Positions 35,251 through 54,219 of a stretch of DNA of 64,000 nt are shown here, piece after piece. Both the position numbers and the translations under genes were made by a program. The notes beneath the pieces are model-generated. The model made no database searches and was not told the origin of the DNA. It saw only the letters and a program-made list of their open reading frames with translations. Every line of letters starts with the position of its first letter. Positions within the stretch are counted from its first letter, which is position 1. Source of the DNA: Bacteroidota bacterium (GTDB lineage Bacteria > Bacteroidota > Bacteroidia > JABEUT01); contig JABCZW010000002.1 of assembly GCA_013289475.1 (NCBI GenBank), forward strand, positions 12,265 to 76,264, in the 5' to 3' direction.

Positions 35251-36264
35251 ATGAAAACAAAAATTACCATCCCTTTAGTATGCGCATTTATTTTATTATT
35301 TTCTTTAAGAGAAGTTAAAGCTCAAACATTAATTCAATATTGGGATTTTAATAATACCCCCCCTGCCGGTGGCGGTGCACACGATAGTCTTGGTAACGTT
35401 ACCAATGCCTTAGTTGCCAACCAGGTATTTGCAGGGCTAACTCCAGGGCATATCATTTATTCACGCCCAAGCGCTCATTTTGGTTCAACCGGTTTGAGAG
35501 ACAGTATATTAGATAATGGTTCAGGTGGTGCTGCATTTTATGATTACAGCAACAGCAACGATACCGGGAGCAGTGCAGCCGGAAACCTGTTTATAAGAGC
35601 GCGTAATCCGTCTGACAGTTGTACGTTTACTATATATGCTCCAACTACAGGGTTTAAGAATATTTCAATGCAATATGCCATTTCTACTTCAAGCTCAGCA
35701 GCAGCTCAATATAATATACTTTCATACAGTACCGATGGAGGTAGTACCTGGAAGAAATTAACTACTGCAATGGATACATTTAATATTGGTGGTGTACGTT
35801 ACCCAGATACATTACAAGTAGAAAATCCAGTTACTGCTGCCAGTGGATGGTATCCTGTTCAAATAAACTTTACAAGCGATCCTGCAGTAAATAATAACCC
35901 AAATTTTGTTTTAAGCTGGATCATTGCGGGTTCTAATTCATCAATAGGCAGCCATAATGACAGGTATGATAATATCGCTGTATGGGGCACTTCTGTAAAT
36001 GGTATTAATGAGTTACCAGCTGAGGCTGCAGGCTATAATGCTTATCCTAACCCGGCAGGAGATATAGTAACCATTGATGGAACATACATAGGTAAAAAAC
36101 TGGTTACAATCTATAACATTCTTGGACAGTCAGTTGTTTCTGTTGCAGATGATAAAAAACAAGTGCCTGTGAATATTTCAAGTTTAACTTCAGGAGTGTA
36201 TTTTGTAAACATTAAAGAAGTAACAACCGGGATAAATTATACACTTAAGCTGGTAAAGAATTGA
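35251..36264 (+). CDS. Minimal member of the module family: signal peptide, unnamed module and T9SS type-A CTD
   Basis: 337-aa ORF. MKTKITIPLVCAFILLFSLREVKAQT. LIQYWDFNNTPP...DRYDNIAVWG. C-terminus AYPNPAGDIVTIDG...GVYFVNIKEVTTGINYTLKLVKN. Confidence 0.75.
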   Translation: MKTKITIPLVCAFILLFSLREVKAQTLIQYWDFNNTPPAGGGAHDSLGNVTNALVANQVFAGLTPGHIIYSRPSAHFGSTGLRDSILDNGSGGAAFYDYSNSNDTGSSAAGNLFIRARNPSDSCTFTIYAPTTGFKNISMQYAISTSSSAAAQYNILSYSTDGGSTWKKLTTAMDTFNIGGVRYPDTLQVENPVTAASGWYPVQINFTSDPAVNNNPNFVLSWIIAGSNSSIGSHNDRYDNIAVWGTSVNGINELPAEAAGYNAYPNPAGDIVTIDGTYIGKKLVTIYNILGQSVVSVADDKKQVPVNISSLTSGVYFVNIKEVTTGINYTLKLVKN

Positions 36265-41790: not shown

Positions 41791-44700
41791 TTATTGCACT
41801 ACCACCTTCTGCACCACAGCATATATATGTTCCGCATCGAATGCTTTTATAAAATATACACCAGCAGCCAAATTATTGCGTTGTAATCCGTATTGTTTGC
41901 CTGAGCATTCTATGCTTTCAATTTTTCTGCCTGCTACATCATCCAGTTCTAAGTAATGAACTCCGCCTGTGTTGAAAACTATACTGGTTGTTGTTGTGAA
42001 CGGATTTGGGAACACAGCAATGTTCAATTGATTTGAAACATGCTGAACTGATAATGGGCCACCTACGATAGGGCTCTTTGTTGTGTTGGTTATTACAACG
42101 GCATTGGCATCGAAGTAAATGCCTGCACCATTATAAATCACATCTCCAGGTGCTGCACTTGCAGCAGGATTAATTGTGTATTTAAACACACCAATACTTG
42201 TTGTCTTGCTGGTTTCCGTATCAGGCAGGTTAATATTGGTGAAGGTAAATTTTGCAATATTACCTGATACAATTGTTGTAACCACATCGCTACTTGCCGA
42301 TGTTACTTTTAATGTAGTGGGGTCAACATACTGGCTGAGTGTATCTAGCACTACCACATTTTTTGCAATAGCAGTTCCTGTATTCTGGAAGTGAATAGTA
42401 TAATTGAGTTGTTGTGTAGGAGAAATATTTCCTTCAGGCAATACACTCTTTTCGTTGGGGTCAAATGGGAAACCGATACAGTATTGTGACAATGGTTTTA
42501 CCCAATAGGTAACAAAATTATTAGCAGGAACTGAATCGCCAAAGGTAGGGGTGATAAGCATGGTAACGGATACACTATCATCTGCAGGTAACAAATCAAC
42601 CGAACCTGTTAACGACACACATTGTGTTTTACCAATATCAGAAAGGCTGTCATAATTCCATATTAAAGTATCTCCGCTTACGTGCGCAATACTATCTGAT
42701 ATTATACTTGTAATATGAAAAGCAGTATCTAAGATCAGTTTCAATGTTCCGTTTGTTGGCATGCACCTATTGTTATATATACAAGCCTGAATAGATGCGT
42801 TGGAGTTCTTTGGGGTATCAATACAGACATATAAATTACCTGTAAGATCGAAGCCATTTGATTTAGCTACAACTATTGACTGAGTAATAGAACTACTGCA
42901 TTTATTTTGGGTTCCCACCAAAGTATAAGTAGTAGTAACGGTTGGGCTTGCGGTAATGTTAGCACAGCTATAGCAACTTATACCTGAAAACGGCGCCCAT
43001 ATATATGTTGAGGCTCCACTTGCTTTTAGCTTAGTTGAGTTTCCATCACAAATAGATGTATTACCTGATATGGTTAACGAAGGTAGATGGGTAACCACAA
43101 CTGCAATACTTGTATCAGCTGAACAAATACCAAGGTTTGTACTTACAGTGTAGGTTGTATTTAGGGCCGGGCTAACAATAATAGTAGTTGAAGTATCTCC
43201 TGTATTCCAGGTAAAAGGCTTGGTGCCACTTGCTATTAATGTGTCTGCAATGCCTGCGCATATGGTTGTCTTTCCGGTAAGGTGAACTGTTGGCAATTTA
43301 TCTATAGTAATAGCGTAGGAAGTGTCTTTTAAACAACCTCCTTTAATTATGGCAACAGTGTATGTGGTAGTTAAAGGGGGGCTCACTAAAATTGTATTTA
43401 GTGTATCTCCATTATTCCAATGATATGTTGCGCCACCTGTTACAGATATAGTGTCAATAGCTCCGGTACAAATTTCATTTTTTCCTGAGAAGGTAATTGT
43501 ACCCAAAGAGTTTACATTTATAGCAATAGTGGTATCGGCGCTGCAACCTGCTTTTGTCCCTATAACTGTATATGTAATATTTGAAGCCGGGCTTACTACA
43601 ATTGTGTGTGTGGTATCTGTTGTATTCCATATATAGCTTGTTCCGCCTGTAGCTGTAAGAGTATCTGTATTGCCTGCACATAATGCTGTTTTACCGGAAA
43701 CTTTAATTACGGGCAGTTGTGTAACATTTATAGAAAATGATGTGTCGTTGGTACATGTGTTCAAAGTTGCCGTTACGCTAAATGTACTGGTTGTTGATGG
43801 GGTAACTATAATACTATCTGCAGTGCTTCCCGTACTCCAGGCATAGGCTGTGCCTCCGCTAATTGTAACTGTATCAGCACCACCTCTGCATAAACCTCCG
43901 GCTCCTTTTATTGTTATATGCGCTAATGGCTTTACAGTAACAGTAAATGAACTATCTCTTGTGCAACTTCCGGTTACACCAATCAATATATATGTATGTG
44001 TTGCAATCGGCGCAACAATAATATTGTTTGTTGTTTTTCCATTACTCCAGGCATATGTATTAGCACCACTGGCATTAAGGGTGTCAGGTACCCCTGAGCA
44101 TATTGTATCGGTGTATGTAACGAAAAAATGAGGCATGGAATCAACTTTTATAACCACCGATGTATCGAGCGTACAGGTAGTGTTTTGTACACTAACGGTA
44201 TACGTGCTTGCAACGGACGGTGCGGCAATTAAGGTGTTTGTTGTACTACCATTGCTCCATGCATAATGTATTCCGCCCGATATTAGTATTGTATCATTAG
44301 TTCCTCTGCAAACTGTACTATTACCTTTTATGGTAACAGGAAAAGGTACAACACCAACAAACATTGTATCGGTAGATTTACAAGTGTTCGCATCAGTTAC
44401 GGTTAATACATACTGTCCTTCTGCAAGACCACTGATGGATGAAGTGGTACTTCCGTTTGACCATGCATAACTATAAGGTGCCTGTGCCGAGCCTGCGCTT
44501 ATACTTACCGCTCCATCAGCATATCCTCGGCAAGTTACCAGTGTTAATGATTGAGTTGTTTCCACAGGATTTGGTAATACTGTTATGTAATTTGTTTTAG
44601 TTATGGAATCAATATCGGTTGTATTGATTACTATCATTTTTACGGAATATTTGCCTGGCGTCGAATAGGTAACAACAGGGTTGCGCGCTGTTGAATTAGC

Positions 44701-46014
44701 AGGTGTGCCACCGGGAAATGTCCATGCCCAGTTTGTTGGTTTGTTGGTCGATGAATCTTTAAACTGAACGCTTAAGCCGGCGCAAATTGTGGTAGGTGAT
44801 GCAGTAATGTGTGCAACGGGTGGTGTGCGGTGTATCAGTATTAAGCCACCGCCAGGGTAAGCACCAATTCCGCTATTGCCACCGGTTCCATACCTTTGTA
44901 GGCTTGCTAACGCTTTTTCTGCGTTAGTAGATGGGTTAAAACTGAAAATAACTCCAACTCCATAAGCCCCACCTGTCTGAGCTATTCCATACATTAAGCC
45001 TGTAGCTGAATCCTGAACCAACTTGTCAATGGGTCCGCCGCCATCAGCCCCGCCGGTAAAATTATACCGTATCGAATCTTTATTTGTTGTAGGATCAAAA
45101 CTGAATATTATTCCTCCGCCATGGGTTCCACCCTGAACAGCCATACCATATATCAATCCATCTTTTCCCTGTATAAATGTACAATCAGGGTAAGCGCCAA
45201 TTGTTCCTCCTGTAAAGTTTATGAGGAGACTATCCTCAGTGCCATTAGATGGATTGTAACTGAAAGCAGCACCTTCGTCAGCGCTACCACCTTGCGAAGA
45301 CGTACCATACATTATGTTGCTTTTTGCCTGAAGCAATGTATATTCAGGATTGTCTGCACCCCGTGCAGTACCTTTAAAACATATCCTTATACTATCTTTA
45401 CCGGTAACCGGATCGTAGCTGAACAAGACACCGTAATTAAATATACCACCACCCTGAGTTAAACCATAAAGTAGCCCGTTAGTACCTTGTATTAAACTAC
45501 CTAAAGGGGCTGAACCATTAGTAACATTAAAATTAATGAGCACACTATCTTTACCTGTAACCGGGTCGAGACTGAAAAGAGTACCCTTGGAATGTGATCC
45601 TCCACCATATGTCATTCCATATATCAGACCGTTAGTAGCCTGTATTAAACCTCCATTCGGAGAATCTCCATTAGGGCCGGTGAAGCTGAAAATGGCACTA
45701 TCCTGCCGTGTTACAATATCAAAACAAAACAATACTCCTTCAGCTGCAGAGCCACCTACCGGGCTCATACCATAAAGCAAACCATTAGATGCCTGCATAA
45801 GTTCACCTTCAGGATTTTCACCTTCCACATTTTTAAAGATATGCATTAAAGAATCTTTGCCTGACACAGGGTCGAACGCAATTATTGTACCATGATCATA
45901 GGTTCCGCCATATTGTGTCATACCATAATAATTACTGCCGTAGTAATTAAATTTTTGGGCATGAATGCTTAATGTAATTATAAATAACACGGAGAGTAGC
46001 AGGTGTTTTTTCAT
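41791..46014 (-). CDS. Giant secreted GloVer (Gloeo_Verruco) repeat protein with PKD, SprB-repeat, Ig-like repeats, DUF11-like domain and T9SS type-A CTD
   Basis: The ATG at 46014 (MKKHLLLSVLFIITLSIHAQ) is preferred over the GTG at 46020. About 7 repeats of GG..G.G..F.(F/Y)....G.......F.G..G..P.G.L.Q...G..YG.T. PKD (WAWTFPGGTPANSTARNPVVTYSTPGKYSV). About 9 Ig-like repeats. PFDPNEKSV...IHFQNTG. C-terminus VFPNPFTTTTSIVFN...GVYFIKAFDAEHIYAVVQKVVVQ. Confidence 0.8.
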   Translation of the reverse strand: MKKHLLLSVLFIITLSIHAQKFNYYGSNYYGMTQYGGTYDHGTIIAFDPVSGKDSLMHIFKNVEGENPEGELMQASNGLLYGMSPVGGSAAEGVLFCFDIVTRQDSAIFSFTGPNGDSPNGGLIQATNGLIYGMTYGGGSHSKGTLFSLDPVTGKDSVLINFNVTNGSAPLGSLIQGTNGLLYGLTQGGGIFNYGVLFSYDPVTGKDSIRICFKGTARGADNPEYTLLQAKSNIMYGTSSQGGSADEGAAFSYNPSNGTEDSLLINFTGGTIGAYPDCTFIQGKDGLIYGMAVQGGTHGGGIIFSFDPTTNKDSIRYNFTGGADGGGPIDKLVQDSATGLMYGIAQTGGAYGVGVIFSFNPSTNAEKALASLQRYGTGGNSGIGAYPGGGLILIHRTPPVAHITASPTTICAGLSVQFKDSSTNKPTNWAWTFPGGTPANSTARNPVVTYSTPGKYSVKMIVINTTDIDSITKTNYITVLPNPVETTQSLTLVTCRGYADGAVSISAGSAQAPYSYAWSNGSTTSSISGLAEGQYVLTVTDANTCKSTDTMFVGVVPFPVTIKGNSTVCRGTNDTILISGGIHYAWSNGSTTNTLIAAPSVASTYTVSVQNTTCTLDTSVVIKVDSMPHFFVTYTDTICSGVPDTLNASGANTYAWSNGKTTNNIIVAPIATHTYILIGVTGSCTRDSSFTVTVKPLAHITIKGAGGLCRGGADTVTISGGTAYAWSTGSTADSIIVTPSTTSTFSVTATLNTCTNDTSFSINVTQLPVIKVSGKTALCAGNTDTLTATGGTSYIWNTTDTTHTIVVSPASNITYTVIGTKAGCSADTTIAINVNSLGTITFSGKNEICTGAIDTISVTGGATYHWNNGDTLNTILVSPPLTTTYTVAIIKGGCLKDTSYAITIDKLPTVHLTGKTTICAGIADTLIASGTKPFTWNTGDTSTTIIVSPALNTTYTVSTNLGICSADTSIAVVVTHLPSLTISGNTSICDGNSTKLKASGASTYIWAPFSGISCYSCANITASPTVTTTYTLVGTQNKCSSSITQSIVVAKSNGFDLTGNLYVCIDTPKNSNASIQACIYNNRCMPTNGTLKLILDTAFHITSIISDSIAHVSGDTLIWNYDSLSDIGKTQCVSLTGSVDLLPADDSVSVTMLITPTFGDSVPANNFVTYWVKPLSQYCIGFPFDPNEKSVLPEGNISPTQQLNYTIHFQNTGTAIAKNVVVLDTLSQYVDPTTLKVTSASSDVVTTIVSGNIAKFTFTNINLPDTETSKTTSIGVFKYTINPAASAAPGDVIYNGAGIYFDANAVVITNTTKSPIVGGPLSVQHVSNQLNIAVFPNPFTTTTSIVFNTGGVHYLELDDVAGRKIESIECSGKQYGLQRNNLAAGVYFIKAFDAEHIYAVVQKVVVQ

Positions 46015-46024
46015 TTGCACCTAT

Positions 46025-49000
46025 TTATTGTACAACGACCTTCTGTACAGCAATGTATTTATGTTCGGCATCATAAGCCTTTATAAAGTATATACCGTCG
46101 GCTAAGTTCTTGCGGTTAAGCTCATATTGTTTGCCGTTACATTCAATATTTTCTAATTTACGACCTGTGACATCATCTACTTCTAAATAATGCAATCCGT
46201 CTACGTTAAATACAATACTTGTGGTACTGTTAAAAGGATTAGGGAAGGCCGCAATATTTAACGCAGTTGAAATGTTTTGTACAAACAATGGCGCACCCGG
46301 AATTGTATTTACTGTAGTATTGGTCATTATTTCAGGGTTAGCATCAAAATAAATACCTGCATGGTTCTTTATTTGTGTGCCTGCAACATCCGTGCTGAGT
46401 GGTAATATAGTATACTTCACAATACCTATGCTCAGTGTTTTACTCATGGCGGTGTCGGGTAAGTTAATAGCATTGAATGTAAAGTTTACAGTATTGCCAG
46501 AACTAATAGTAGTAACTACTTCAGCACTGCTGGATGTTACTTTAAGTGTAGTAGGGTCAACAAACTGGCTTAGCGTATCCATAACTACTACATTTCTAGC
46601 CACTGCCTTTCCAGTATTCTGAAAGTGAATGGTGTAGTTAAGTAATGTTGTTGCTGTTATATCTCCCTGCGGAATCACACTCTTTTCATTCGGATCAAAA
46701 GGTAGGCCTTGGCATTTAAACTCGGTAGGTTTTACCCAATATGTAACAGAATTATTTGCAGGAACCGAGTCGCCGAGGGTAGGTGTAATGAGTAGGGTTA
46801 CAAAAGCACTATCGCCCGCCGGTATATTACTTATACTTCCGTTCAACGATACACAATGTGATTTGCCAATATCAGAAAGACTATCATAATTCCATATCAG
46901 GGTATCTCCGCTAACATGCGCAACACTGTCAGCCGTCATGCTAGTAATATGCAATGCAGTATCCAGAATCAATTTTAACTTACCGTTAACGGGCATACAA
47001 CGGTTATTGAATATACAGGCTTGTATAGATGCATTTGAAAAGGATGGAGTGTCAATACACACAGTCAGGTTACTTGCCAGGTCGAAGCCATTCGATGGAG
47101 CCACGTTAACTGTCCTTGTTGCAGTACCATTACATCCGTTTGTTGTGCCAATAATAGTATACGTAGTAGTAACAGCAGGAGAAACTGATAAATTGGCTGC
47201 CGTAATTACACCTGGAAACCAAAGATAGCTATTGGCTCCTGTAGCTGTAAGCTTGGTAGAACTTCCGGAGCAAATAGTCGAATCGCCTGTAATTATTATT
47301 AACGGAATAGGATTAACAGTTAAAACTACTGAAGTGTCTTTCAGGCAAATACCATTATTTGCAATTAATGTATATGTTGTAGTTGTGGCCGGGTTTATTA
47401 TTATAGTATCATTTGTAGAGCCATTACTCCACTTGTAATTATTTACTGAACTTACCCTTATTGTATCGTAGCTGCCATTACAAATTGCAATATTGTAGTT
47501 TGCACTTATAACAGGTAGCGGATTAATAGCAACACTAATTGATGTATCGAGTATACAAGCGCCTTTTTTTACAGTTACTGAATATGTGCTGGCAGAAACA
47601 GGGGCAACTATAATTCTGTTCGTTGTTGCTCCTGTATTCCAGGCATAGCTTGCCCCTCCCGATAAAGTAATGGTGTCCTTCAAACCAGGGCATACCATAG
47701 TTTTGCCAATAATGCTCAGTGATGCAAGAGAATTTACAGTTACAGAGAATGTTGTATCTTTTGTACAGGTTGAACTGCTTACATTAACAGTATATGTTGT
47801 GGTTGATAAAGGGTTCACAATTATACTGTTATTTGTAGTTCCGTTGCTCCACACGTAACTTATGCCTCCGCCAGCTATTATTGTATCACTTATGCCGGAA
47901 CAAATTGAATTAACGCCTTTTATTGTTGCAACCGGTAATGAAAGAATAGTAATTGTTATAGATGTATCTTTTATACAGCCTGCCTTGTTTTTTATTGCCA
48001 CAGAATAAGTACTTGTTGAGGCAGGTGTAATAATTATATTGTTCTTTATTGAACCTGTATTCCATATATAAGAAGAGCCGCCGCTTGCAAAAACAGTATC
48101 AGGTATTCCCCTGCAGATTGTACTCTTATCAATTATTCCCGCTATGGGTAATGTAGCCAGCACAAGATTTACAGTATCGTAATTGGTACATGTGTATTTG
48201 TCAATAGCGTATACTATATATTGGCCCGAAGCAGCAAGTTTGAATGAAGTACTGTTAGTAATACCATTATTCCAGGTATATGTGCCGCCGCCCGGGATTG
48301 ATGTTGCTGTAAGGGTTGCTTTACCGCCTGTACATACCGTATCATTAGTAGGAATTGAGGTGATTGTTATTTTAGGTAAATCAACAGTAAGTTTAACTGT
48401 GTCGGTAATAGATTTAAGCACGCAACCGTTCGATACTACACATCTATATGTATAGCCACTCATTTTTACCCCGGCTCCGGTTATATTAAGTGTAGTTGAA
48501 GTAGTTCCTGAATATAATCCGCCGTTTATTATATTGGTAAATACATTAGTATTTGTGTCCACCTGCCATTGATAGGTTACAGGGCTACCTGCGCTGGCCA
48601 GTACAGTAAAAGAAGTATCTCCACCGGGACAGATAATTGCATTTTTTGGTTCCCTGTTAATGAATGCAGGTACACACACTTCCAATAAACGGGTCCATTG
48701 TGGCGCTTGGCCATTGCTGCCTGTAAAATCAAGTATTTTAGTAAATACATTAGTTGCCGGATTTATTTTAAAAAGAGTTCCATAATTAACAGAACCACCA
48801 TTCATCGCCATGCCATATATCATTCCATTTGTAGCCTGTGTTAAGGTACAATAAGGGGTTGCCCCTAAAGTGTCATTGAAATCAAAGATATCAGTGTAGG
48901 TATTTGTGTTGGTATCAAATGTAAATATGGCACCATAACCATGAGCGCCGCCTGAGCCTGCTGTGCCATAAAATAAACCATTCGATGCCATCATAAGAGA

Positions 49001-49813
49001 AGCGGCCGGCCCGCTACCAGTGGGTATAGAAAAAGCATAGAGGTCAGTAAGTTTATTAGTAATCGGGTTAAATTTGAAAATAGTTCCATGTTTATTGGCA
49101 CCACCTCCTGATGTCATACCATAAAGCATTCCATTTGGCATTTGCAATAAATTACCATACGGGTTTGCCCCAAGGGTATCGTTAAAATTTAAAACGTCAG
49201 TATAACTATTCGTGGAAGTATCGAAACTGAAAATAACGCCATTACCGGAATAGTACCCTCCATATTCGGTCATTCCGTATAACTTTCCGTTTGTGGCTTG
49301 TATCAACGAGCCATATGGATACGCGCCATTACCAGTATTAAAATTGTGCAATACTTTATACAACTGTGTGTGAATATTAAAACTGAAAAGCACCCCATAT
49401 ACTGATGTTCCTCCCCTGTAATCCATACCATACATAAGGCCATTTGCAGCTTGCAAAAGATCTCCGTAAGGCGAATTACCATCTATGGTATAACCAATAT
49501 TATAGAGAGTAGGACATGCACCGGTGGCAAAACTATACCTGAACACTGTACCATTATCTTCATTTCCTGCATTCTCAGTTAATCCATAAAGATGGCCATC
49601 CGATCCCAGAATAAGTGATCCTAACGGAAGCCCACCTCCGTAAAAGTTATTAGTAAAATTGTATAGGGTAATTAAGGTATCTTTTGTAAGGTCGTATTTA
49701 AATATGTTTCCACCGCCACCACCTTGTGATGTCATTCCTAAAAGAGCATTCTGCGCATTTGAACTAGTAAAAGCAAGTACCAATACACATAAAAGGGAAA
49801 GTAGTTTTTTCAT
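46025..49813 (-). CDS. Giant secreted GloVer-repeat protein, tandem paralog of 41791-46014
   Basis: 1262-aa ORF. Signal peptide MKKLLSLLCVLVLAFTSSNAQ. GloVer repeats, Ig-like domain (YQWQVDTNTN...SGYTYRCVV), Ig-like repeats. The C-terminal ~330 aa is largely identical by eye to the neighbouring paralog, including the T9SS CTD. Confidence 0.8.
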   Translation of the reverse strand: MKKLLSLLCVLVLAFTSSNAQNALLGMTSQGGGGGNIFKYDLTKDTLITLYNFTNNFYGGGLPLGSLILGSDGHLYGLTENAGNEDNGTVFRYSFATGACPTLYNIGYTIDGNSPYGDLLQAANGLMYGMDYRGGTSVYGVLFSFNIHTQLYKVLHNFNTGNGAYPYGSLIQATNGKLYGMTEYGGYYSGNGVIFSFDTSTNSYTDVLNFNDTLGANPYGNLLQMPNGMLYGMTSGGGANKHGTIFKFNPITNKLTDLYAFSIPTGSGPAASLMMASNGLFYGTAGSGGAHGYGAIFTFDTNTNTYTDIFDFNDTLGATPYCTLTQATNGMIYGMAMNGGSVNYGTLFKINPATNVFTKILDFTGSNGQAPQWTRLLEVCVPAFINREPKNAIICPGGDTSFTVLASAGSPVTYQWQVDTNTNVFTNIINGGLYSGTTSTTLNITGAGVKMSGYTYRCVVSNGCVLKSITDTVKLTVDLPKITITSIPTNDTVCTGGKATLTATSIPGGGTYTWNNGITNSTSFKLAASGQYIVYAIDKYTCTNYDTVNLVLATLPIAGIIDKSTICRGIPDTVFASGGSSYIWNTGSIKNNIIITPASTSTYSVAIKNKAGCIKDTSITITILSLPVATIKGVNSICSGISDTIIAGGGISYVWSNGTTNNSIIVNPLSTTTYTVNVSSSTCTKDTTFSVTVNSLASLSIIGKTMVCPGLKDTITLSGGASYAWNTGATTNRIIVAPVSASTYSVTVKKGACILDTSISVAINPLPVISANYNIAICNGSYDTIRVSSVNNYKWSNGSTNDTIIINPATTTTYTLIANNGICLKDTSVVLTVNPIPLIIITGDSTICSGSSTKLTATGANSYLWFPGVITAANLSVSPAVTTTYTIIGTTNGCNGTATRTVNVAPSNGFDLASNLTVCIDTPSFSNASIQACIFNNRCMPVNGKLKLILDTALHITSMTADSVAHVSGDTLIWNYDSLSDIGKSHCVSLNGSISNIPAGDSAFVTLLITPTLGDSVPANNSVTYWVKPTEFKCQGLPFDPNEKSVIPQGDITATTLLNYTIHFQNTGKAVARNVVVMDTLSQFVDPTTLKVTSSSAEVVTTISSGNTVNFTFNAINLPDTAMSKTLSIGIVKYTILPLSTDVAGTQIKNHAGIYFDANPEIMTNTTVNTIPGAPLFVQNISTALNIAAFPNPFNSTTSIVFNVDGLHYLEVDDVTGRKLENIECNGKQYELNRKNLADGIYFIKAYDAEHKYIAVQKVVVQ

Positions 49814-49892: not shown

Positions 49893-50103
49893 TTATTGCA
49901 CCACTACCTTCCGCACAACCATGTACTTATATTTCAGCATCGAATATTTTTATAAAGTACATACCTACAGCTAAGGTACTACCTTGCAGTTCATATTGCT
50001 TGTCTGTGCATTCCATACTTTCAATTTTTTTGCCCGTTACATCATTTAGCTCTAAATAATGGACTCCGCCTGTGTTGAATACCACAATTGTTGTTGTAAA
50101 CGC
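49893..50103 (-). pseudogene. Decayed fragment of a third paralog: T9SS CTD remnant only
   Basis: The DNA aligns by eye with the 3' ends of both giant genes (ttattgcac.ac.accttc.gcac...ttcaatttttt.tgcc.g.tacatcat..agctctaa.taatg.actccgcctgtgttgaa.ac.a). The minus-frame translation ...NTGGVHYLELNDVTGKKIESMECTDKQYELQG... is interrupted by a stop and has no upstream body. Confidence 0.7.
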
Positions 50104-50223: not shown

Positions 50224-51621
50224 TCAATTAATAAATTTCTTCATTCCATGAATTATTCCTTTGCAATTGGACATGCCACAGAAACATTTAAATGGTTTCA
50301 TGGTTTCATCATAAATAGAAGAATAATCGAAGGTTAATTCTTCTTCTTTATTAATATCTGTTTTTGCATGGACATTTAAACCCACATATTCTGTGTTTGG
50401 GTTACAGGAATGGTTTTGTGGAGCCCAATTGTCCGGGTTCTCATTCCAGATAATATAAACTTCATTGCTAATTGGAACAGCATAACGCGCAAAAACATCC
50501 TGCTCTTCTTTGCTCCAATTTTCCTGAATCCATTTTCTTGTTACAATCCTGTGCGGTTTTTCTTCTCCACGAAAAATAATCTCTCCCTTAGCTATATCTT
50601 TAGTGGAATAAATCCCATATCCGGAAATACTGTTCCCTTGTCTTTTATACACTATTTGATTTCTCTGAAACCTTGCTATCCCTTCTTCAATAATATGCTT
50701 TAAGAAACCTGATTGACCAACACCATCAAAATCTAATATATAATCGGCTGTGCCTTTATGAATGCCAGTATAAAAAACTGAACAAGCAAAGTTAATTTCA
50801 AGAAAATAAAGATTATCATTGGTGTCTAACCGAAAGTCTAGTCTTGCATAACCATGCCCATTAAAAGCTTCAAAAATACATTTGCTGTATTCCTTCAACT
50901 GATTTTCGAATTTTGATTCGCAGGGAATGTTTGCATTGGAGGAGAGAAAAGAAGTTTTCAAGTCGTATGACTTATATTCATATCCTTTGGGAAATATATA
51001 TTCAACGGGTTTATATACTGTACTCGTTTTCCCATCAGCATTAGCGGCAACCAATACTGAAAATTCCCTACCTGCAATATATTCTTCGATAATGAGAGAA
51101 GCATAACTTTTAAAGAGTAGCTCGGCTTTTTTCTTTAAATCAGATTGATTTGTTATAAGCGAATCTTTATCAATACCTAAACTATCACCGGCATGAGCAG
51201 GTTTAATAAATAAAGGGTAATTCATTGCTCCAACCTTATTCTCGATATTGTCTCCTGTTTGAATAACCACAAAAGACGGTGTTTTAATATTTGCTGCATA
51301 AGCAACATATTTCATTAATTCTTTGGAAGGGTCGTACAAAAATGAAGCCGGCCCCGTGTGCGGTAACTTCAAAGTCTCAAGAAAGTACACTACATCAATG
51401 GACGGAATGTCCCAATCGAGGTAACCCTCGCATAAATTTACAAAAATGTCATAGCTTTTATTTGATAATGATTGTAGCTGCTTAAATGTAGTAAGTTTAT
51501 TTATAAAAACATAGTCAATATGACTTCCTGGAAATAAGTCGTCCAAATTTCTTGGAGGATCATAGTTTCTGTAATCTACTTTACTTGCCGAATAATCAGG
51601 CTGGAGTATACATATTTTCAT
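50224..51621 (-). CDS. Fusion protein: D-Ala-D-Ala-ligase-like ATP-grasp domain plus C-terminal SET / post-SET methyltransferase domain
   Basis: 465-aa ORF. ATP-grasp strings YPLFIKPAHAGDSLGI, LIIEEYIAGREFSV, GYARLDFRLDTNDNLYFLEINF. SET strings GYGIYSTKDIAKGEIIF, APQNHSCNPN, ELTFDYS. Post-SET CFCGMSNCKG (CxCxxxxC). Confidence 0.75.
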   Translation of the reverse strand: MKICILQPDYSASKVDYRNYDPPRNLDDLFPGSHIDYVFINKLTTFKQLQSLSNKSYDIFVNLCEGYLDWDIPSIDVVYFLETLKLPHTGPASFLYDPSKELMKYVAYAANIKTPSFVVIQTGDNIENKVGAMNYPLFIKPAHAGDSLGIDKDSLITNQSDLKKKAELLFKSYASLIIEEYIAGREFSVLVAANADGKTSTVYKPVEYIFPKGYEYKSYDLKTSFLSSNANIPCESKFENQLKEYSKCIFEAFNGHGYARLDFRLDTNDNLYFLEINFACSVFYTGIHKGTADYILDFDGVGQSGFLKHIIEEGIARFQRNQIVYKRQGNSISGYGIYSTKDIAKGEIIFRGEEKPHRIVTRKWIQENWSKEEQDVFARYAVPISNEVYIIWNENPDNWAPQNHSCNPNTEYVGLNVHAKTDINKEEELTFDYSSIYDETMKPFKCFCGMSNCKGIIHGMKKFIN

Positions 51622-51775: not shown

Positions 51776-52126
51776 ATGAAAAAAGTATATCATCTTTCAA
51801 GCTGCTCCACGTGCCAAAAAATCATTAAAGATCTGCAACTGAGAGAAAAAGGTTTTGTATTGCAAGATATAAAGACGGAAAAGATAACTTCGCCGCAGTT
51901 AGATAAGATGATAGAAATGGCCGGCTCTGTTGACCCTTTATTTAGTACCAAGGCCATTAAGTACAGAGAGCTTGGATTAAAGGACAAAAAATTAACTGAT
52001 AGGGAAAAGAAGGACTATATTCTGAGTGAATATACTTTTCTTAAAAGGCCAGTTATAATTGTGAGCTTAAAAATATTTGCGGGTAGCTCATCTGAAACAA
52101 TCTCTCGGGTTAAATCTATACTATGA
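51776..52126 (+). CDS. ArsC/Spx-family (glutaredoxin-fold) protein
   Basis: 116-aa ORF. MKKVYHLSSCSTCQKIIKDL (CxxC-type N-terminus of the ArsC family) and FLKRPVII. Confidence 0.7.
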   Translation: MKKVYHLSSCSTCQKIIKDLQLREKGFVLQDIKTEKITSPQLDKMIEMAGSVDPLFSTKAIKYRELGLKDKKLTDREKKDYILSEYTFLKRPVIIVSLKIFAGSSSETISRVKSIL

Positions 52127-52174: not shown

Positions 52175-52774
52175 ATGACAGATTTAAAATCAATTTATAA
52201 TGGTACTATGAAATACACATATAATGGTGTATTATGTTTAAAAAACCCATTCGATTTTGCTATTTACCAGCAAATCATATTCAATATTGCTCCTGATTTA
52301 ATACTTGAAATAGGTACTAATCATGGTGGATCGGCGTTGTATTTGGCTGATTTATTAAATGTAACTAGTAACGGAATAGTCTATTCTATAGATATTACCG
52401 ACAATGACATCGACAAAAAAGTAATGTTACATCCAAGAATAAAACTTTTTTCTAGCGGTTGGCAGAATTTTGATGTGGGTCTTATGAAGAAATTCAAAAA
52501 AGTTATTGTTATAGATGATGGCTCACATCAATATAAAGATGTTTTAGGAGCGTTAAATAAATTCAGCTCTTTTGTCACTAATGATTCGTATTATATTGTT
52601 GAAGATGGGGTTATTAATCAATTGGGGTTAGAATCTCAATATGATAGAGGGCCTTTAAGAGCTATAAATGATTTTTTAAAAGGTAATAAGAACTTTATGG
52701 TAGATAGATACTTATGTAATTATTTCGGAGAAAGTACCACATTTAATACTGATGGCTATTTGAAAAGGTTATAG
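52175..52774 (+). CDS. CmcI / cephalosporin-hydroxylase-family class-I SAM-dependent methyltransferase
   Basis: 199-aa ORF. KNPFDFAIYQQIIFNIAPDLILEIGTNHGGSALYLADL and VIVIDDGSH match the CmcI-family pattern as I recall it. Confidence 0.65.
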   Translation: MTDLKSIYNGTMKYTYNGVLCLKNPFDFAIYQQIIFNIAPDLILEIGTNHGGSALYLADLLNVTSNGIVYSIDITDNDIDKKVMLHPRIKLFSSGWQNFDVGLMKKFKKVIVIDDGSHQYKDVLGALNKFSSFVTNDSYYIVEDGVINQLGLESQYDRGPLRAINDFLKGNKNFMVDRYLCNYFGESTTFNTDGYLKRL

Positions 52775-52827: not shown

Positions 52828-54219
52828 ATGAAAAACAATACCTTTCTGATTATTGCATTATTTTGTTTGAAATTAGTAGCAGTAAATGCACAAGATACAG
52901 TCCTATTCAATTTTAATGGAACAAACGGAAAAAATCCTCATGCTTCATTAACACTTAGTGGAAATGTGCTATACGGTATGACAGAAAATGGAGGGTTAAA
53001 TGATAGTGGTTGTATATTTTCCATCAATACTAATAGTAAAGCATTTCAAGACCTTTACGATTTTAAGGGACCTCAGGGGAAACTGCCCTATGGCTCATTA
53101 ACTATTGCGGGGCGAAAATTATATGGAATGACTTATTCAGGAGGAGCTAAAGGTGATGGGGTCATTTTTTCTGTAGATACAAATGGCAAAGGATATAAGG
53201 ACCTGCTTGATTTTAATGGAATAAATGGGCAAAATTCTACCGGCTCATTAGTTATTGCCGGAAACAAATTATATGGAATGTCACAATTTGGAGGTTCAAA
53301 ATCTGAAGGGCTTGTTTTCTGCATAGATACGAATGGTAATGGTTTTAAGGATTTGCTTGATTTTAATAATTCAAATGGATTATATCCTACCGGCTCATTA
53401 ATTATAGCGGGAAACAAACTATACGGAATGACTTATTTTGGTGGTACGAGTGCCGATGGAGTTGTTTTTTATATAGATACTAATGGCAGCGGATATAAAA
53501 AATTGCTTGATTTTAATGGAACAAATGGTAAAGAACCGTATGGCGCATTAACCATTGCGGGCAATAAATTATATGGTATGACATATGCAGGAGGTGCAAG
53601 CTCAGATGGGGTAATTTTTTCGGTAGATACGGGTGGAGGCGGATACAAAGATCTACTTGATTTTAGTGGACCAAACGGGCAAAACCCTTTAGGCTCATTA
53701 ACTATTGCAGGGGATATTTTATATGGAATGACAGCCAGCGGTGGTAGTATTGCCGGAAATATTTTTTCAATTGATTCAAATGGTACCGGATATAAAGACC
53801 TGCTAAATTTTAATGGAACAGATGGCCAAGGGCCGGCAGGCGATATCTTGATTTCAGGAAACCTGCTTTATGGATTGGCATGGCAAGGTGGAAGTAGTTC
53901 TGACGGAGTTATTTTCAGATATAAAGACACTAATATAATAACATCGACTAATAATATAAATACAACTACCGAACAGGTAAAACTATTTCCAGATCCTACA
54001 AACGGTGATATTACAATTGAATTAAAGGGAGCAATAAATATGGCACATATTGAAATATACAATATACTTGGAGAAGTTATTTATACCGCACAACTAAAAG
54101 CATCCATCACCCAAATAAATTTAAATAATAATGCTTCGGGGGTATATTTATACCGGGTACTCACAGAATCTGGTGGGTTAATTTCACAGGGAAGGCTGTT
54201 ACTTCAAAAAGTTAAATAA
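52828..54219 (+). CDS. Secreted GloVer (Gloeo_Verruco) repeat protein with T9SS type-A CTD
   Basis: 463-aa ORF. Signal peptide ...KLVAVNAQ. Seven or eight very regular ~48-aa repeats (GG...DGVIFS.DTNG.GYKDLLDFNG.NG..P.GSL.IAGNKLYGMT). C-terminus LFPDPTNGDITIELK...GVYLYRVLTESGGLISQGRLLLQKVK. Confidence 0.8.
   Translation: MKNNTFLIIALFCLKLVAVNAQDTVLFNFNGTNGKNPHASLTLSGNVLYGMTENGGLNDSGCIFSINTNSKAFQDLYDFKGPQGKLPYGSLTIAGRKLYGMTYSGGAKGDGVIFSVDTNGKGYKDLLDFNGINGQNSTGSLVIAGNKLYGMSQFGGSKSEGLVFCIDTNGNGFKDLLDFNNSNGLYPTGSLIIAGNKLYGMTYFGGTSADGVVFYIDTNGSGYKKLLDFNGTNGKEPYGALTIAGNKLYGMTYAGGASSDGVIFSVDTGGGGYKDLLDFSGPNGQNPLGSLTIAGDILYGMTASGGSIAGNIFSIDSNGTGYKDLLNFNGTDGQGPAGDILISGNLLYGLAWQGGSSSDGVIFRYKDTNIITSTNNINTTTEQVKLFPDPTNGDITIELKGAINMAHIEIYNILGEVIYTAQLKASITQINLNNNASGVYLYRVLTESGGLISQGRLLLQKVK

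What the first reader, a model, noticed from the sequence alone, without database searches (positions are those of the whole stretch)
50224..51621. ATP-grasp (Ddl-like) domain fused to a SET / post-SET methyltransferase domain
The N-terminal ~320 aa has the ATP-grasp ligase core (PLFIKPAHAGDSLGI, IEEYIAGREFSV, LDFRLD...LYFLEINF). The C-terminal ~145 aa (nt 50227-50664) has all the SET hallmarks (GYGIYS, NHSCNPN, ELTFDYS) plus a CxCxxxxC post-SET motif.

Bacterial SET domains are uncommon. Fusion to an amino-acid or peptide ligase implies an enzyme that both ligates and methylates a target. Analogies would be RimK or TTL-like protein tailing combined with lysine methylation.

The gene is monocistronic and sits among surface-protein genes, with no obvious substrate gene nearby.
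Basis: partly seen in the sequence, partly recalled or inferred. Interest (0 to 1): 0.65.

Follow-up and report, generated by a model that had tools for sequence, protein, structure and literature searches.

The report
Ddl-like ligase fused to SET methyltransferase
This is a real, intact gene for a two-in-one enzyme (an ATP-dependent amino-acid ligase joined to a SET methyltransferase) from a large uncharacterised family of soil and freshwater Bacteroidota, which most likely helps build a small methylated peptide-like metabolite rather than tagging proteins.

Summary
ORF 50224-51621 (-) encodes a 465-aa protein with a complete Ddl-type ATP-grasp (Pfam E=5.8e-24) joined by a short linker to a SET/post-SET domain (E=1.4e-12). 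All catalytic motifs of both domains are invariant across the family.

It is not an assembly error. The same architecture occurs in thousands of proteins and in at least 582 species genomes, almost all Chitinophagales. dN/dS is about 0.10 for both domains.

It is not a true D-Ala-D-Ala ligase. The ATP/Mg residues are kept, but every D-Ala-specific residue is replaced, and Ddl NCBIfam scores fall far below the cut-offs.

A BurB-like stand-alone SET comes first (BurB methylates free methionine), then a second Ddl-like ATP-grasp that usually overlaps the fusion by 4 bp, then the fusion, then an ABC-type membrane or exporter gene. Gene fusions in other lineages confirm these links. The window copy and its nearest relatives are "orphans" with altered ligase substrate loops.

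Best reading (about 0.55): a ligase-methyltransferase acting on a small-molecule amino acid or short peptide. The product is unknown. The rival, RimK/TTL-like protein tailing plus lysine methylation, is less supported.

The parts
50224..51621 (-). Complete gene for the 465-aa ATP-grasp/SET fusion protein (stop codon included)
   Evidence: ORF listing. Full-length homologues at 56-85% identity. dN/dS is about 0.10 against L081.
50662..51621 (-). Residues 1-320: a three-domain Ddl-type ATP-grasp ligase module. The ATP/Mg/catalytic residues K100, K140, E179, K222, R260, D262, E275 and N277 are retained. The D-Ala specificity residues are replaced.
   Evidence: Pfam Dala_Dala_lig_C covers residues 110-277, nt 50791-51294. 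Foldseek matches Ddl/VanA over 330-370 columns. Residue mapping onto E. coli DdlB.
50227..50661 (-). Residues 321-465: SET domain plus post-SET. It carries GxG (G334/G336), NHSC (N403-C406), ELTFDY (Y433) and the Zn-cluster cysteines C406, C446, C448 and C453.
   Evidence: Pfam SET covers residues 334-433, nt 50323-50622. Invariant columns are listed. The family profile hits KMT2A at 1e-12 and BurB at 1.1e-12.
50263..50286 (-). Post-SET CxCxxxxC motif (C446-F-C448-G-M-S-N-C453)
   Evidence: Read from the sequence. The three cysteines are invariant in 72 sequences.

Best explanation
The gene encodes a cytoplasmic, bifunctional enzyme.

The two halves:
- The N-terminal Ddl-type ATP-grasp module activates a carboxylate as an acyl-phosphate and forms an amide bond with an amine. 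The substrates are not D-alanine. The site has gained two invariant acidic residues (E65, D146), and I suggest it handles a cationic, possibly 'onium', amino acid.
- The rigidly attached SET module transfers methyl groups from SAM to the same molecule, either before or after ligation.

The substrate is most likely a free amino acid or short non-ribosomal peptide, not a protein.

In most family members the enzyme works in a four-gene operon:
- a BurB-like stand-alone SET methyltransferase;
- a second, translationally coupled Ddl-like ligase;
- the fusion itself;
- an ABC-type membrane or exporter protein.
This set would make and export a small, doubly ligated and methylated peptide-like metabolite.

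The window's copy belongs to a divergent 'orphan' lineage. It has lost or relocated these partners and has changed residues in the ligase lid and substrate loops, so it probably uses a somewhat different substrate.

Shown: the gene is real, the fusion is real, the catalytic residues are conserved, it is not a Ddl, the operon and Rosetta-stone linkages exist, the orphan status holds, and selection is purifying.
Inferred: the substrate class is a small molecule, the product is exported, and the substrate is cationic.
Unknown: the actual substrates and product.
For: Domains and motifs.

Ddl subfamily and fold. All 50 top structural matches are Ddl or VanA, which are small-molecule ligases. There is no RimK or TTL Pfam hit.

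Residue mapping: the catalytic residues are kept. The D-Ala residues change as E15->S/T, H63->E, S150->D, Y216->T, G276->S, S281->E/K and L282->S/T.

Conserved operon in Chitinophagales:
- second ATP-grasp upstream in 73/75 loci, with a modal 4-bp overlap;
- small SET in 66/72 loci;
- ABC_membrane_3 in 50/69 loci.
The ligase pairing holds in a more diverse metagenome set.

The small SET partner is a BurB homologue (E=9.4e-14 over nearly its full length). BurB methylates free Met to S-methylmethionine (PMC12542666).

Rosetta-stone support:
- In Streptomyces the fusion is followed by an overlapping small SET gene of that type (E=3e-29).
- A marine 647-aa protein fuses it onto the C-terminus (E=3e-41).
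- P0160 fuses a second ATP-grasp.

Export link: a full ABC exporter (TMD+NBD) is embedded in the variant operons L110 and L112, and an ABC_membrane gene is present in L087.

No conserved precursor-peptide ORF was found.

The fusion SET's C-terminal third closely resembles BurB, including the segment whose backbone binds Met in BurB (50.7 bits in 56 residues).

Orphan lineage. Clade-specific changes K143H, E225F/V, H227S, G287I and E289K. dN/dS about 0.10.
Against: - No substrate or product has been identified, and no member of the family has been characterised.
- Over its whole length the fusion's own SET domain is as similar to histone lysine methyltransferases (KMT2A E=1e-12; NSD2, MLL4 and SETD2 by Foldseek) as to BurB. 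A protein or peptide lysine target is therefore not excluded.
- The window copy has none of the operon partners within 64 kb, so inference from the operon may not transfer fully to this lineage.
- The operon sits among syntenic housekeeping genes (SSB, RecQ, a helicase) in Chitinophagaceae. This fits a core cellular function as well as a secreted metabolite.
- ABC_membrane_3 lacks an ATPase domain, and its role as an exporter is assumed.
- The 'cationic substrate' idea rests only on two acidic replacements and conserved aromatic residues.
Confidence: 0.55

Rival explanations
1. Protein- or peptide-tailing enzyme. The ATP-grasp adds amino acids to a carboxylate of a cellular protein, as RimK or the TTLs do. 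The SET domain methylates a lysine of the same target, for example a ribosomal or nucleoid protein.
For: - Over its full length the SET domain resembles protein lysine methyltransferases (KMT2A 1e-12; NSD2, MLL4 and SETD2 by Foldseek).
- It keeps the catalytic Tyr and the post-SET Zn site.
- The orphan copies work without adjacent partners, as expected if the target is a conserved cellular protein.
- The gene is vertically inherited in a housekeeping neighbourhood.
- TTLL12 shows that SET-like plus ATP-grasp domains can coexist in a protein linked to protein modification (PMC3520985).
Against: - The ligase is Ddl-type. It gives no RimK or TTL Pfam hit, and all top structural matches are small-molecule ligases.
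- The conserved partner SET is a homologue of BurB, which methylates a free amino acid.
- The operons recurrently include ABC exporter components.
- No candidate target gene is conserved next to it.
- TTLL12 itself is catalytically inactive and of a different ATP-grasp family.
Confidence: 0.22
2. The SET domain is non-catalytic. It would act as a regulatory, SAM-sensing or substrate-holding module that controls a Ddl-like ligase, so only ligation chemistry occurs.
For: - Pseudo-enzyme precedent: both TTLL12 domains are inactive.
- The rigid packing of the two domains (pTM 0.85) would suit allosteric coupling.
Against: - All SAM-binding and catalytic SET motifs (GxG, NHSC, ELTxDY, Zn cysteines) are invariant across 72 sequences.
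- The SET half is under the same purifying selection as the ligase half (dN/dS about 0.09).
Confidence: 0.07
3. It is the organism's cell-wall D-Ala-D-Ala (or D-Ala-D-X) ligase carrying an accessory domain.
For: The best sequence and structure matches are Ddl and VanA. JGI annotates many members as 'D-alanine-D-alanine ligase'.
Against: - NCBIfam Ddl models score about 91 bits against cut-offs of 243-246 and above.
- All D-Ala1 and D-Ala2 binding residues (E15, H63, S150, Y216, G276, S281, L282) are replaced.
- The taxonomic range is narrow, and there is no mur/ftsQ context.
Confidence: 0.03
4. Artefact: two separate genes joined by a sequencing or assembly error.
For: None found.
Against: - The same full-length architecture occurs in the top 120 homologous clusters from independent NCBI, JGI, ENA and Logan assemblies, in 80+57 fetched loci, and in complete chromosomes such as OZ257253.1.
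- The linker is only about 4 residues between helix 302-320 and strand 325.
Confidence: 0.01

Closest known systems
D-alanine-D-alanine ligase / VanA family (Ddl; Pfam PF07478, PF01820)
   Same: Complete three-domain ATP-grasp fold (Foldseek TM up to 0.78). The ATP/Mg/catalytic residues K97, K144, E180, K215, R255, D257, E270 and N272 are conserved. An omega-loop-like lid is present.
   Different: All D-Ala-binding residues are replaced. NCBIfam scores are far below the cut-offs. The protein is fused to a SET domain. It is not in a cell-wall gene context.
BurB / MSMT: SET-domain methionine S-methyltransferase of the DMSP and malleicyprol pathway (PDB 9l4t; PMC12542666)
   Same: A minimal bacterial SET with a post-SET motif. 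The fusion's SET-C/post-SET third is very similar (50.7 bits in 56 residues). BurB gives the highest structural TM-score (0.64/0.59). The family's usual operon partner is a true BurB homologue (E=9.4e-14).
   Different: The N-terminal two-thirds of the fusion's SET domain does not align with BurB at the sequence level and carries its own conserved insert (W369, F377, Y380, W392, W399-A-P-Q). There are no BurI/BurD/BurE-type DMSP genes nearby. The substrate is unknown.
Eukaryotic SET-domain protein lysine methyltransferases (KMT2/MLL, SETD2, NSD, ASH1L)
   Same: Whole-domain sequence and structure similarity. GxG, NHSC, ELxFDY and the post-SET Zn cluster are all present.
   Different: There are no flanking AWS/SET-N or reader domains. 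The protein is bacterial and cytoplasmic, and is fused to a small-molecule-type ligase. A lysine or protein substrate has not been demonstrated.
TTLL12 (eukaryotic SET-like + TTL-like protein; PMC3520985)
   Same: It is the only SET + ATP-grasp single polypeptide that I found described in the searched literature.
   Different: The domain order is opposite (SET-like at the N-terminus). Its ATP-grasp is TTL-type, not Ddl-type. Critical catalytic residues are lost and no activity is seen in vitro. It is found only in eukaryotes.
Ddl-like and L-amino-acid ligases of secondary metabolism (MysD of mycosporine-like amino-acid synthesis; BacD/YwfE, RizA, TabS). Recalled from my own knowledge, not tested here.
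   Same: ATP-grasp ligases that build small, non-ribosomal amide-linked metabolites. They often work in pairs and are encoded with tailoring enzymes and exporters.
   Different: None of these is fused to a SET domain or linked to one. The scaffold-forming genes of those pathways (for example DDGS/EEVS) are absent here.

Membership tests
ATP-grasp superfamily, Ddl subfamily (fold level) | Three-domain ATP-grasp fold matching Pfam Dala_Dala_lig_C above the gathering score | tested here: met
   85.2 bits against a cut-off of 24. Foldseek Ddl hits have E down to 3.9e-20 and cover 330-370 columns.
ATP-grasp superfamily, Ddl subfamily (fold level) | ATP/Mg2+ and catalytic residues (DdlB K97, K144, E180, K215, R255, D257, E270, N272) | tested here: met
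   They map to K100, K140, E179, K222, R260, D262, E275 and N277, invariant in 25/25 family members aligned. The DdlB sequence was recalled from memory, and all 15 check positions matched.
D-alanine-D-alanine ligase proper (EC 6.3.2.4) | D-Ala1/D-Ala2 binding residues (E15, H63, S150, Y216, G276, S281, L282) | tested here: not met
   They are replaced by S13, E65, D146, T223, S281, K289 and T291.
D-alanine-D-alanine ligase proper (EC 6.3.2.4) | Score above the NCBIfam Ddl, VanA or VanG cut-offs | tested here: not met
   The best hit, TIGR01205, scores 90.9 bits against a cut-off of 245.65. All others are also far below their cut-offs.
SET-domain methyltransferase (class V, PF00856) | Pfam SET above the gathering score, with GxG, NHxC and the ELxFDY tyrosine | tested here: met
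   48.4 bits against a cut-off of 22.4. G334, G336, H404, C406, E428 and Y433 are invariant in 72 sequences, and N403 is conserved in at least 90%.
SET-domain methyltransferase (class V, PF00856) | Post-SET Zn cluster (CxCx4C plus the Cys of NHSC) | tested here: met
   C406, C446, C448 and C453 are invariant.
Protein lysine N-methyltransferase (the name NCBI gives to members) | The methyl acceptor is a protein lysine | not testable with these tools
   Sequence and structure similarity to KMTs and to the small-molecule enzyme BurB is equal. No model coordinates were available to inspect the substrate channel.
BurB/MSMT methionine S-methyltransferase | Full-length homology to BurB | tested here: inconclusive
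   The window SET matches BurB only over residues 404-463 (E=8.3e-7; family profile 1.1e-12). The operon partner c1 matches nearly full-length (9.4e-14), but it is absent from the window.
BurB/MSMT methionine S-methyltransferase | Linked SMM decarboxylase, aminotransferase and dehydrogenase genes (BurI/D/E) | tested here: not met
   No such genes were seen in the window neighbourhood or in the conserved operon.
RimK / TTL protein-tailing ATP-grasp ligases | Match to the RimK (PF08443) or TTL (PF03133) profiles | tested here: not met
   Neither is among the six Pfam families hit at E<=0.01.
ATP-grasp RiPP (graspetide/microviridin-type) systems | A conserved precursor-peptide gene next to the ligase | tested here: not met
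   All conserved small ORFs (18-90 aa) in 8-kb operon regions lie in alternate frames inside the conserved genes. None is intergenic.
Known anti-phage defence systems | Match to a PADLOC model | tested here: not met
   There were no hits for the fusion or for its three operon partners.

The most novel reading that the evidence does not exclude
The fusion family, together with its BurB-like SET, second Ddl-like ligase and ABC exporter partners, is an undescribed and widespread Chitinophagales pathway. It would make an exported di- or tripeptide-like metabolite carrying SET-installed methyl groups, possibly a sulfonium or quaternary-ammonium ('onium') amino acid. This would make it the second known case, after BurB, of SET domains acting in small-molecule biosynthesis, and the first in which a SET domain is physically coupled to an amide-bond-forming enzyme.
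Probability: 0.4. Interest if true: 0.72.

Novelty: new variant of a known kind. Interest (0 to 1): 0.52.

Why it matters
SET domains are known almost entirely as protein (histone) lysine methyltransferases. BurB, characterised only recently, showed that a bacterial SET can methylate a free amino acid.

This family is present in hundreds of Bacteroidota species. In it, a catalytically intact SET is hard-wired to a Ddl-type ligase and is genetically linked to a BurB homologue, a second ligase and exporter components.

If the pathway works as proposed, it would widen SET chemistry in metabolism and define a new ATP-grasp peptide pathway. It may also reveal a new methylated or onium metabolite (an osmolyte, signal or antibiotic) in abundant soil and freshwater bacteria.

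It also bears on the idea that eukaryotic protein-modifying enzymes descend from bacterial metabolite-tailoring enzymes. In addition, it would correct the automatic database names now in use ('D-alanine-D-alanine ligase', 'protein-lysine N-methyltransferase').

Tried and rejected
- Assembly or fusion artefact: rejected.
- True Ddl: rejected on residues and NCBIfam cut-offs.
- RiPP/graspetide system: no conserved precursor ORF.
- Defence system: no PADLOC hits.
- Partner genes elsewhere in the window: tblastn of 45 partner sequences found only the fusion gene itself. The wider window neighbourhood holds nothing related, only an M19 dipeptidase, the Mla system, AsmA-like and amidase genes.
- Context of the nearest relatives (84-85% identity): the contigs are short, and at least one (L081) is an orphan with a different upstream neighbour; P0002 has an unannotated 153-aa same-strand upstream ORF for which no DNA was available.
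- Unfused homologues of the ligase (P0173, P0238): their contexts were uninformative.
- Using structure to decide the SET substrate class: the SET-only model is mediocre (pLDDT 73), and Foldseek ranks BurB and the histone KMTs equally, so this is inconclusive.
- Geometry of the two active sites: model coordinates cannot be reached from the scripting machine.
- Literature: no paper in the held library describes this architecture. The Iyer et al. 2009 amidoligase survey (PMC3268129), which might mention it, is not held.
- Promoter and terminator scan: at chance level, and not designed for Bacteroidota promoters.
Full report
OBSERVATION

ORF 50224..51621 on the minus strand is a single uninterrupted 465-codon frame with an ATG start. 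Its N-terminus (MKICILQPDYS...) coincides with the conserved N-terminus of the family.

Pfam-A gives two hits above the curated cut-offs:
- Dala_Dala_lig_C, residues 110-277, E=5.8e-24, 85.2 bits against a cut-off of 24.
- SET, residues 334-433, E=1.4e-12, 48.4 bits against 22.4.

Against PDB sequences, the N-terminal part matches D-Ala-D-Ala ligases (3k3p, E=8.6e-15). The C-terminal part matches BurB, KMT2D, SETD2, NSD2 and ASH1L.

An AlphaFold2 model built on 72 homologues is confident (pLDDT 86.3, pTM 0.85). Helix 302-320 of the ligase runs almost directly into the first SET strand at residue 325, so the two modules are tightly joined. Foldseek aligns 330-370 columns to Ddl and VanA structures (E down to 3.9e-20, TM normalised to target up to 0.78). 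This shows that the whole three-domain Ddl fold is present. No solved structure covers both modules.

IS THE FUSION REAL AND FUNCTIONAL?

The evidence says yes.
- The 120 best homologous clusters all have the same full-length architecture. They come from independent NCBI, JGI, ENA and Logan assemblies. Two are 84-85% identical to the query and the rest 56-62%.
Nearly all are Chitinophagales, such as Ferruginibacter, Sediminibacterium, Terrimonas and Chitinophaga. A few are Saprospiraceae, Ohtaekwangia and Sphingobacteriales.
- An exhaustive search of 50%-identity representatives finds 204 clusters at E<1e-30, including full-length fusions down to about 27-35% identity. Among them are a Streptomyces protein (WP_325748279.1) and sequences from eukaryotic data sets (Mesostigma viride, Vermamoeba vermiformis).
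- Across 72 aligned sequences the catalytic sets of both domains are invariant.
- Between the window gene and its 84%-identical relative L081, dN/dS is about 0.10 overall (dN 0.087, dS 0.905) and about 0.09 for each half.

WHAT THE LIGASE HALF IS AND IS NOT

I mapped E. coli DdlB onto the family. The DdlB sequence was recalled from memory, and all 15 landmark positions checked out.
- The ATP/Mg/catalytic residues are conserved: K97, K144, E180, K215, R255, D257, E270 and N272 correspond to K100, K140, E179, K222, R260, D262, E275 and N277.
- All residues that bind the two D-alanines are replaced: E15->S/T, H63->E, S150->D, Y216->T, G276->S, S281->E (K in the window) and L282->S (T in the window).
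- NCBIfam Ddl and Van models score 37-91 bits against cut-offs of at least 243.

So this is an active-looking Ddl-type ligase with a different substrate. Two replacements introduce invariant acids (E65, D146), and the N-domain is rich in invariant aromatic residues. I read this only as a hint of a cationic substrate. No RimK or TTL profile is matched.

WHAT THE SET HALF IS

- GxG, NHSC, the ELTxDY tyrosine and the four Zn cysteines are conserved.
- A profile of the family's SET region hits KMT2A over the whole domain (E=1e-12). It hits BurB equally strongly (1.1e-12), but only over the SET-C/post-SET third: 50.7 bits in 56 residues. That stretch includes the segment that corresponds to BurB V130-M132, whose backbone binds the methionine substrate.
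- A SET-only model is of lower quality (pLDDT 73). Foldseek ranks NSD2, MLL4 and SETD2 slightly ahead by E-value, while BurB has the highest TM-scores (0.64/0.59).

The methyl acceptor class therefore cannot be decided from the domain itself.

GENOMIC CONTEXT: THE MAIN NEW INFORMATION

I called and clustered ORFs in the 80 genome loci. The fusion is normally the third gene of an operon:
1. A roughly 167-aa stand-alone SET protein, present in 66 of 72 loci with enough flank.
2. A roughly 380-aa second Ddl-like ATP-grasp, present in 73 of 75 loci. The modal spacing to the fusion is a 4-bp overlap.
3. The fusion.
4. A roughly 310-aa ABC_membrane_3 (PF13748) protein, present in 50 of 69 loci.

The small SET protein is a clear homologue of BurB (E=9.4e-14 over residues 35-144; the next hit is KMT2C at 1e-5). 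BurB is the Burkholderia SET enzyme that S-methylates free methionine (PMC12542666).

The linkage recurs in other lineages:
- In Streptomyces the fusion is followed by an overlapping 157-aa SET of the same type (E=3e-29).
- A marine lineage carries it fused to the C-terminus of a 647-aa protein (E=3e-41).
- P0160 fuses a second ATP-grasp.
- A more diverse set of 57 metagenome loci (45-66% identity) keeps the upstream ATP-grasp almost universally.
- Variant operons embed a complete ABC exporter (TMD+NBD, 564-570 aa) between the small SET and the ligases. Another variant has an ABC_membrane gene.

No conserved intergenic small ORF that could encode a precursor peptide exists, and there are no PADLOC hits.

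THE WINDOW COPY IS AN ORPHAN

- None of the three partners is found anywhere in the 64 kb.
- The upstream gene is a divergent ArsC/Spx-like ORF, followed by a CmcI-like methyltransferase. Downstream are T9SS-tailed surface proteins.
- Of the closest relatives (84-85%), L081 clearly lacks a same-strand upstream ligase, while P0002 has an uncharacterised 153-aa same-strand ORF 55 nt upstream, too short to be the ~380-aa ligase. The next closest (L088, 66%) has ligase-fusion-ABC_membrane_3. The partners were therefore lost or moved recently.
- The window clade is an outlier: 57.5% identity to the rest, against 70% among the rest. It carries non-conservative changes at positions that are about 100% invariant elsewhere. 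In the ligase lid and substrate loops these are K143H, E225F/V, H227S, G287I, E289K and S291T. In the SET domain they are Q357H, Y382V/L/I and L437Y. This suggests a shifted specificity rather than decay, given the dN/dS value.
- Other orphan copies exist in other lineages (L119-L121, L117, L126, L127).

MECHANISM

Most likely (about 0.55), the protein is a bifunctional ligase-methyltransferase acting on a small-molecule amino acid or short non-ribosomal peptide. In the full operon, two ligases would form two amide bonds, two SET enzymes would add methyl groups, and the product would be exported.

The steps shown are the domain identities, the catalytic competence inferred from conservation, the status as not a Ddl, and the genetic linkages. 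The steps inferred are the substrate class, the export and the cationic nature of the substrate. The actual substrates and product are unknown.

The KMT-like SET and the stand-alone orphan copies keep it alive. It has no positive support from the type of ligase, the partners or the exporter linkage.

Minor rivals are a non-catalytic SET (about 0.07), a true Ddl (about 0.03) and an artefact (about 0.01).

COMPARISON AND NOVELTY

Each domain belongs to a well-known superfamily, and public databases already hold thousands of members. These carry generic or misleading names ('D-alanine-D-alanine ligase', 'SET domain-containing protein-lysine N-methyltransferase').

I found no description of the architecture or the operon in the searchable literature. 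The only SET + ATP-grasp protein discussed there is eukaryotic TTLL12. It has the opposite domain order, a TTL-type ligase and no catalytic activity. A 2009 survey of amidoligases that might mention the family could not be read.

I rate this a new variant of a known kind and moderately interesting. Its value lies in the conserved but unstudied pathway it points to, and in extending the BurB precedent for SET domains in small-molecule metabolism.

Noticed in passing
window 49893-50100 (minus strand), in the 410-nt spacer between the fusion gene and ORF 46025-49813: A stop-interrupted remnant of a T9SS C-terminal sorting domain ('..IVVFNTGGVHYLELNDVTGKKIESMECTDKQYELQGSTLAVGMYFIKIFDAEI*'). It is paralogous to the C-termini of the two large neighbouring ORFs. 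It suggests a deletion or rearrangement among tandem surface-protein paralogues right next to the orphan fusion gene.
   Followed up: partly
window 41791-46020 (-), 46025-49813 (-), 52828-54219 (+), 35251-36264 (+): A cluster of T9SS-sorted (Por_Secre_tail) proteins. Two are tandem giants of 1409 and 1262 aa that share an N-terminal 'LYGMT..GG..G.IF' repeat region, many Cys-containing Ig-like repeats and near-identical C-termini. The 463-aa protein carries the same N-terminal repeat.
   Followed up: partly
window 51776-52126 (+) and 52175-52774 (+): Two genes lie divergently upstream of the fusion gene: an ArsC/Spx-family protein (below the NCBIfam cut-offs) and a CmcI/rhamnosyl O-methyltransferase-like protein (Pfam E=3.5e-36). 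This neighbourhood is not conserved in relatives, so there is probably no functional link.
   Followed up: partly
L136:880-3946 (minus strand): Besides the main fusion gene on the plus strand of this metagenome contig (6001-7380), there is a second, very divergent cluster on the minus strand. It holds a BurB-like SET, a 324-aa protein 26% identical to the fusion and a 333-aa ATP-grasp (27%). This may be a paralogous version of the pathway.
   Followed up: no
L091, L094 (about 1 kb between the upstream ATP-grasp and the fusion): In these loci a 340-aa minus-strand gene is inserted between the normally overlapping ATP-grasp and fusion genes. It may be a mobile element disrupting the operon.
   Followed up: no
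L084:1-1795 (TARA marine contig, about 8 kb from the 647-aa fusion): An aspartate decarboxylase (PanD) gene lies next to an 849-aa ATPgrasp_N/ATP-grasp_4 protein, which resembles a carnosine synthase. This may be a beta-alanyl-dipeptide module. Unrelated genes separate it from the fusion, so no linkage is established.
   Followed up: no
P0141 (Mesostigma viride, 1415 aa), P0270 (6220 aa, EukProt), P0293 (Vermamoeba vermiformis): Homologues of the ATP-grasp/SET module occur in eukaryotic data sets, some inside very large multi-SET proteins. Whether these are true eukaryotic genes, horizontal transfers or contamination was not examined.
   Followed up: no
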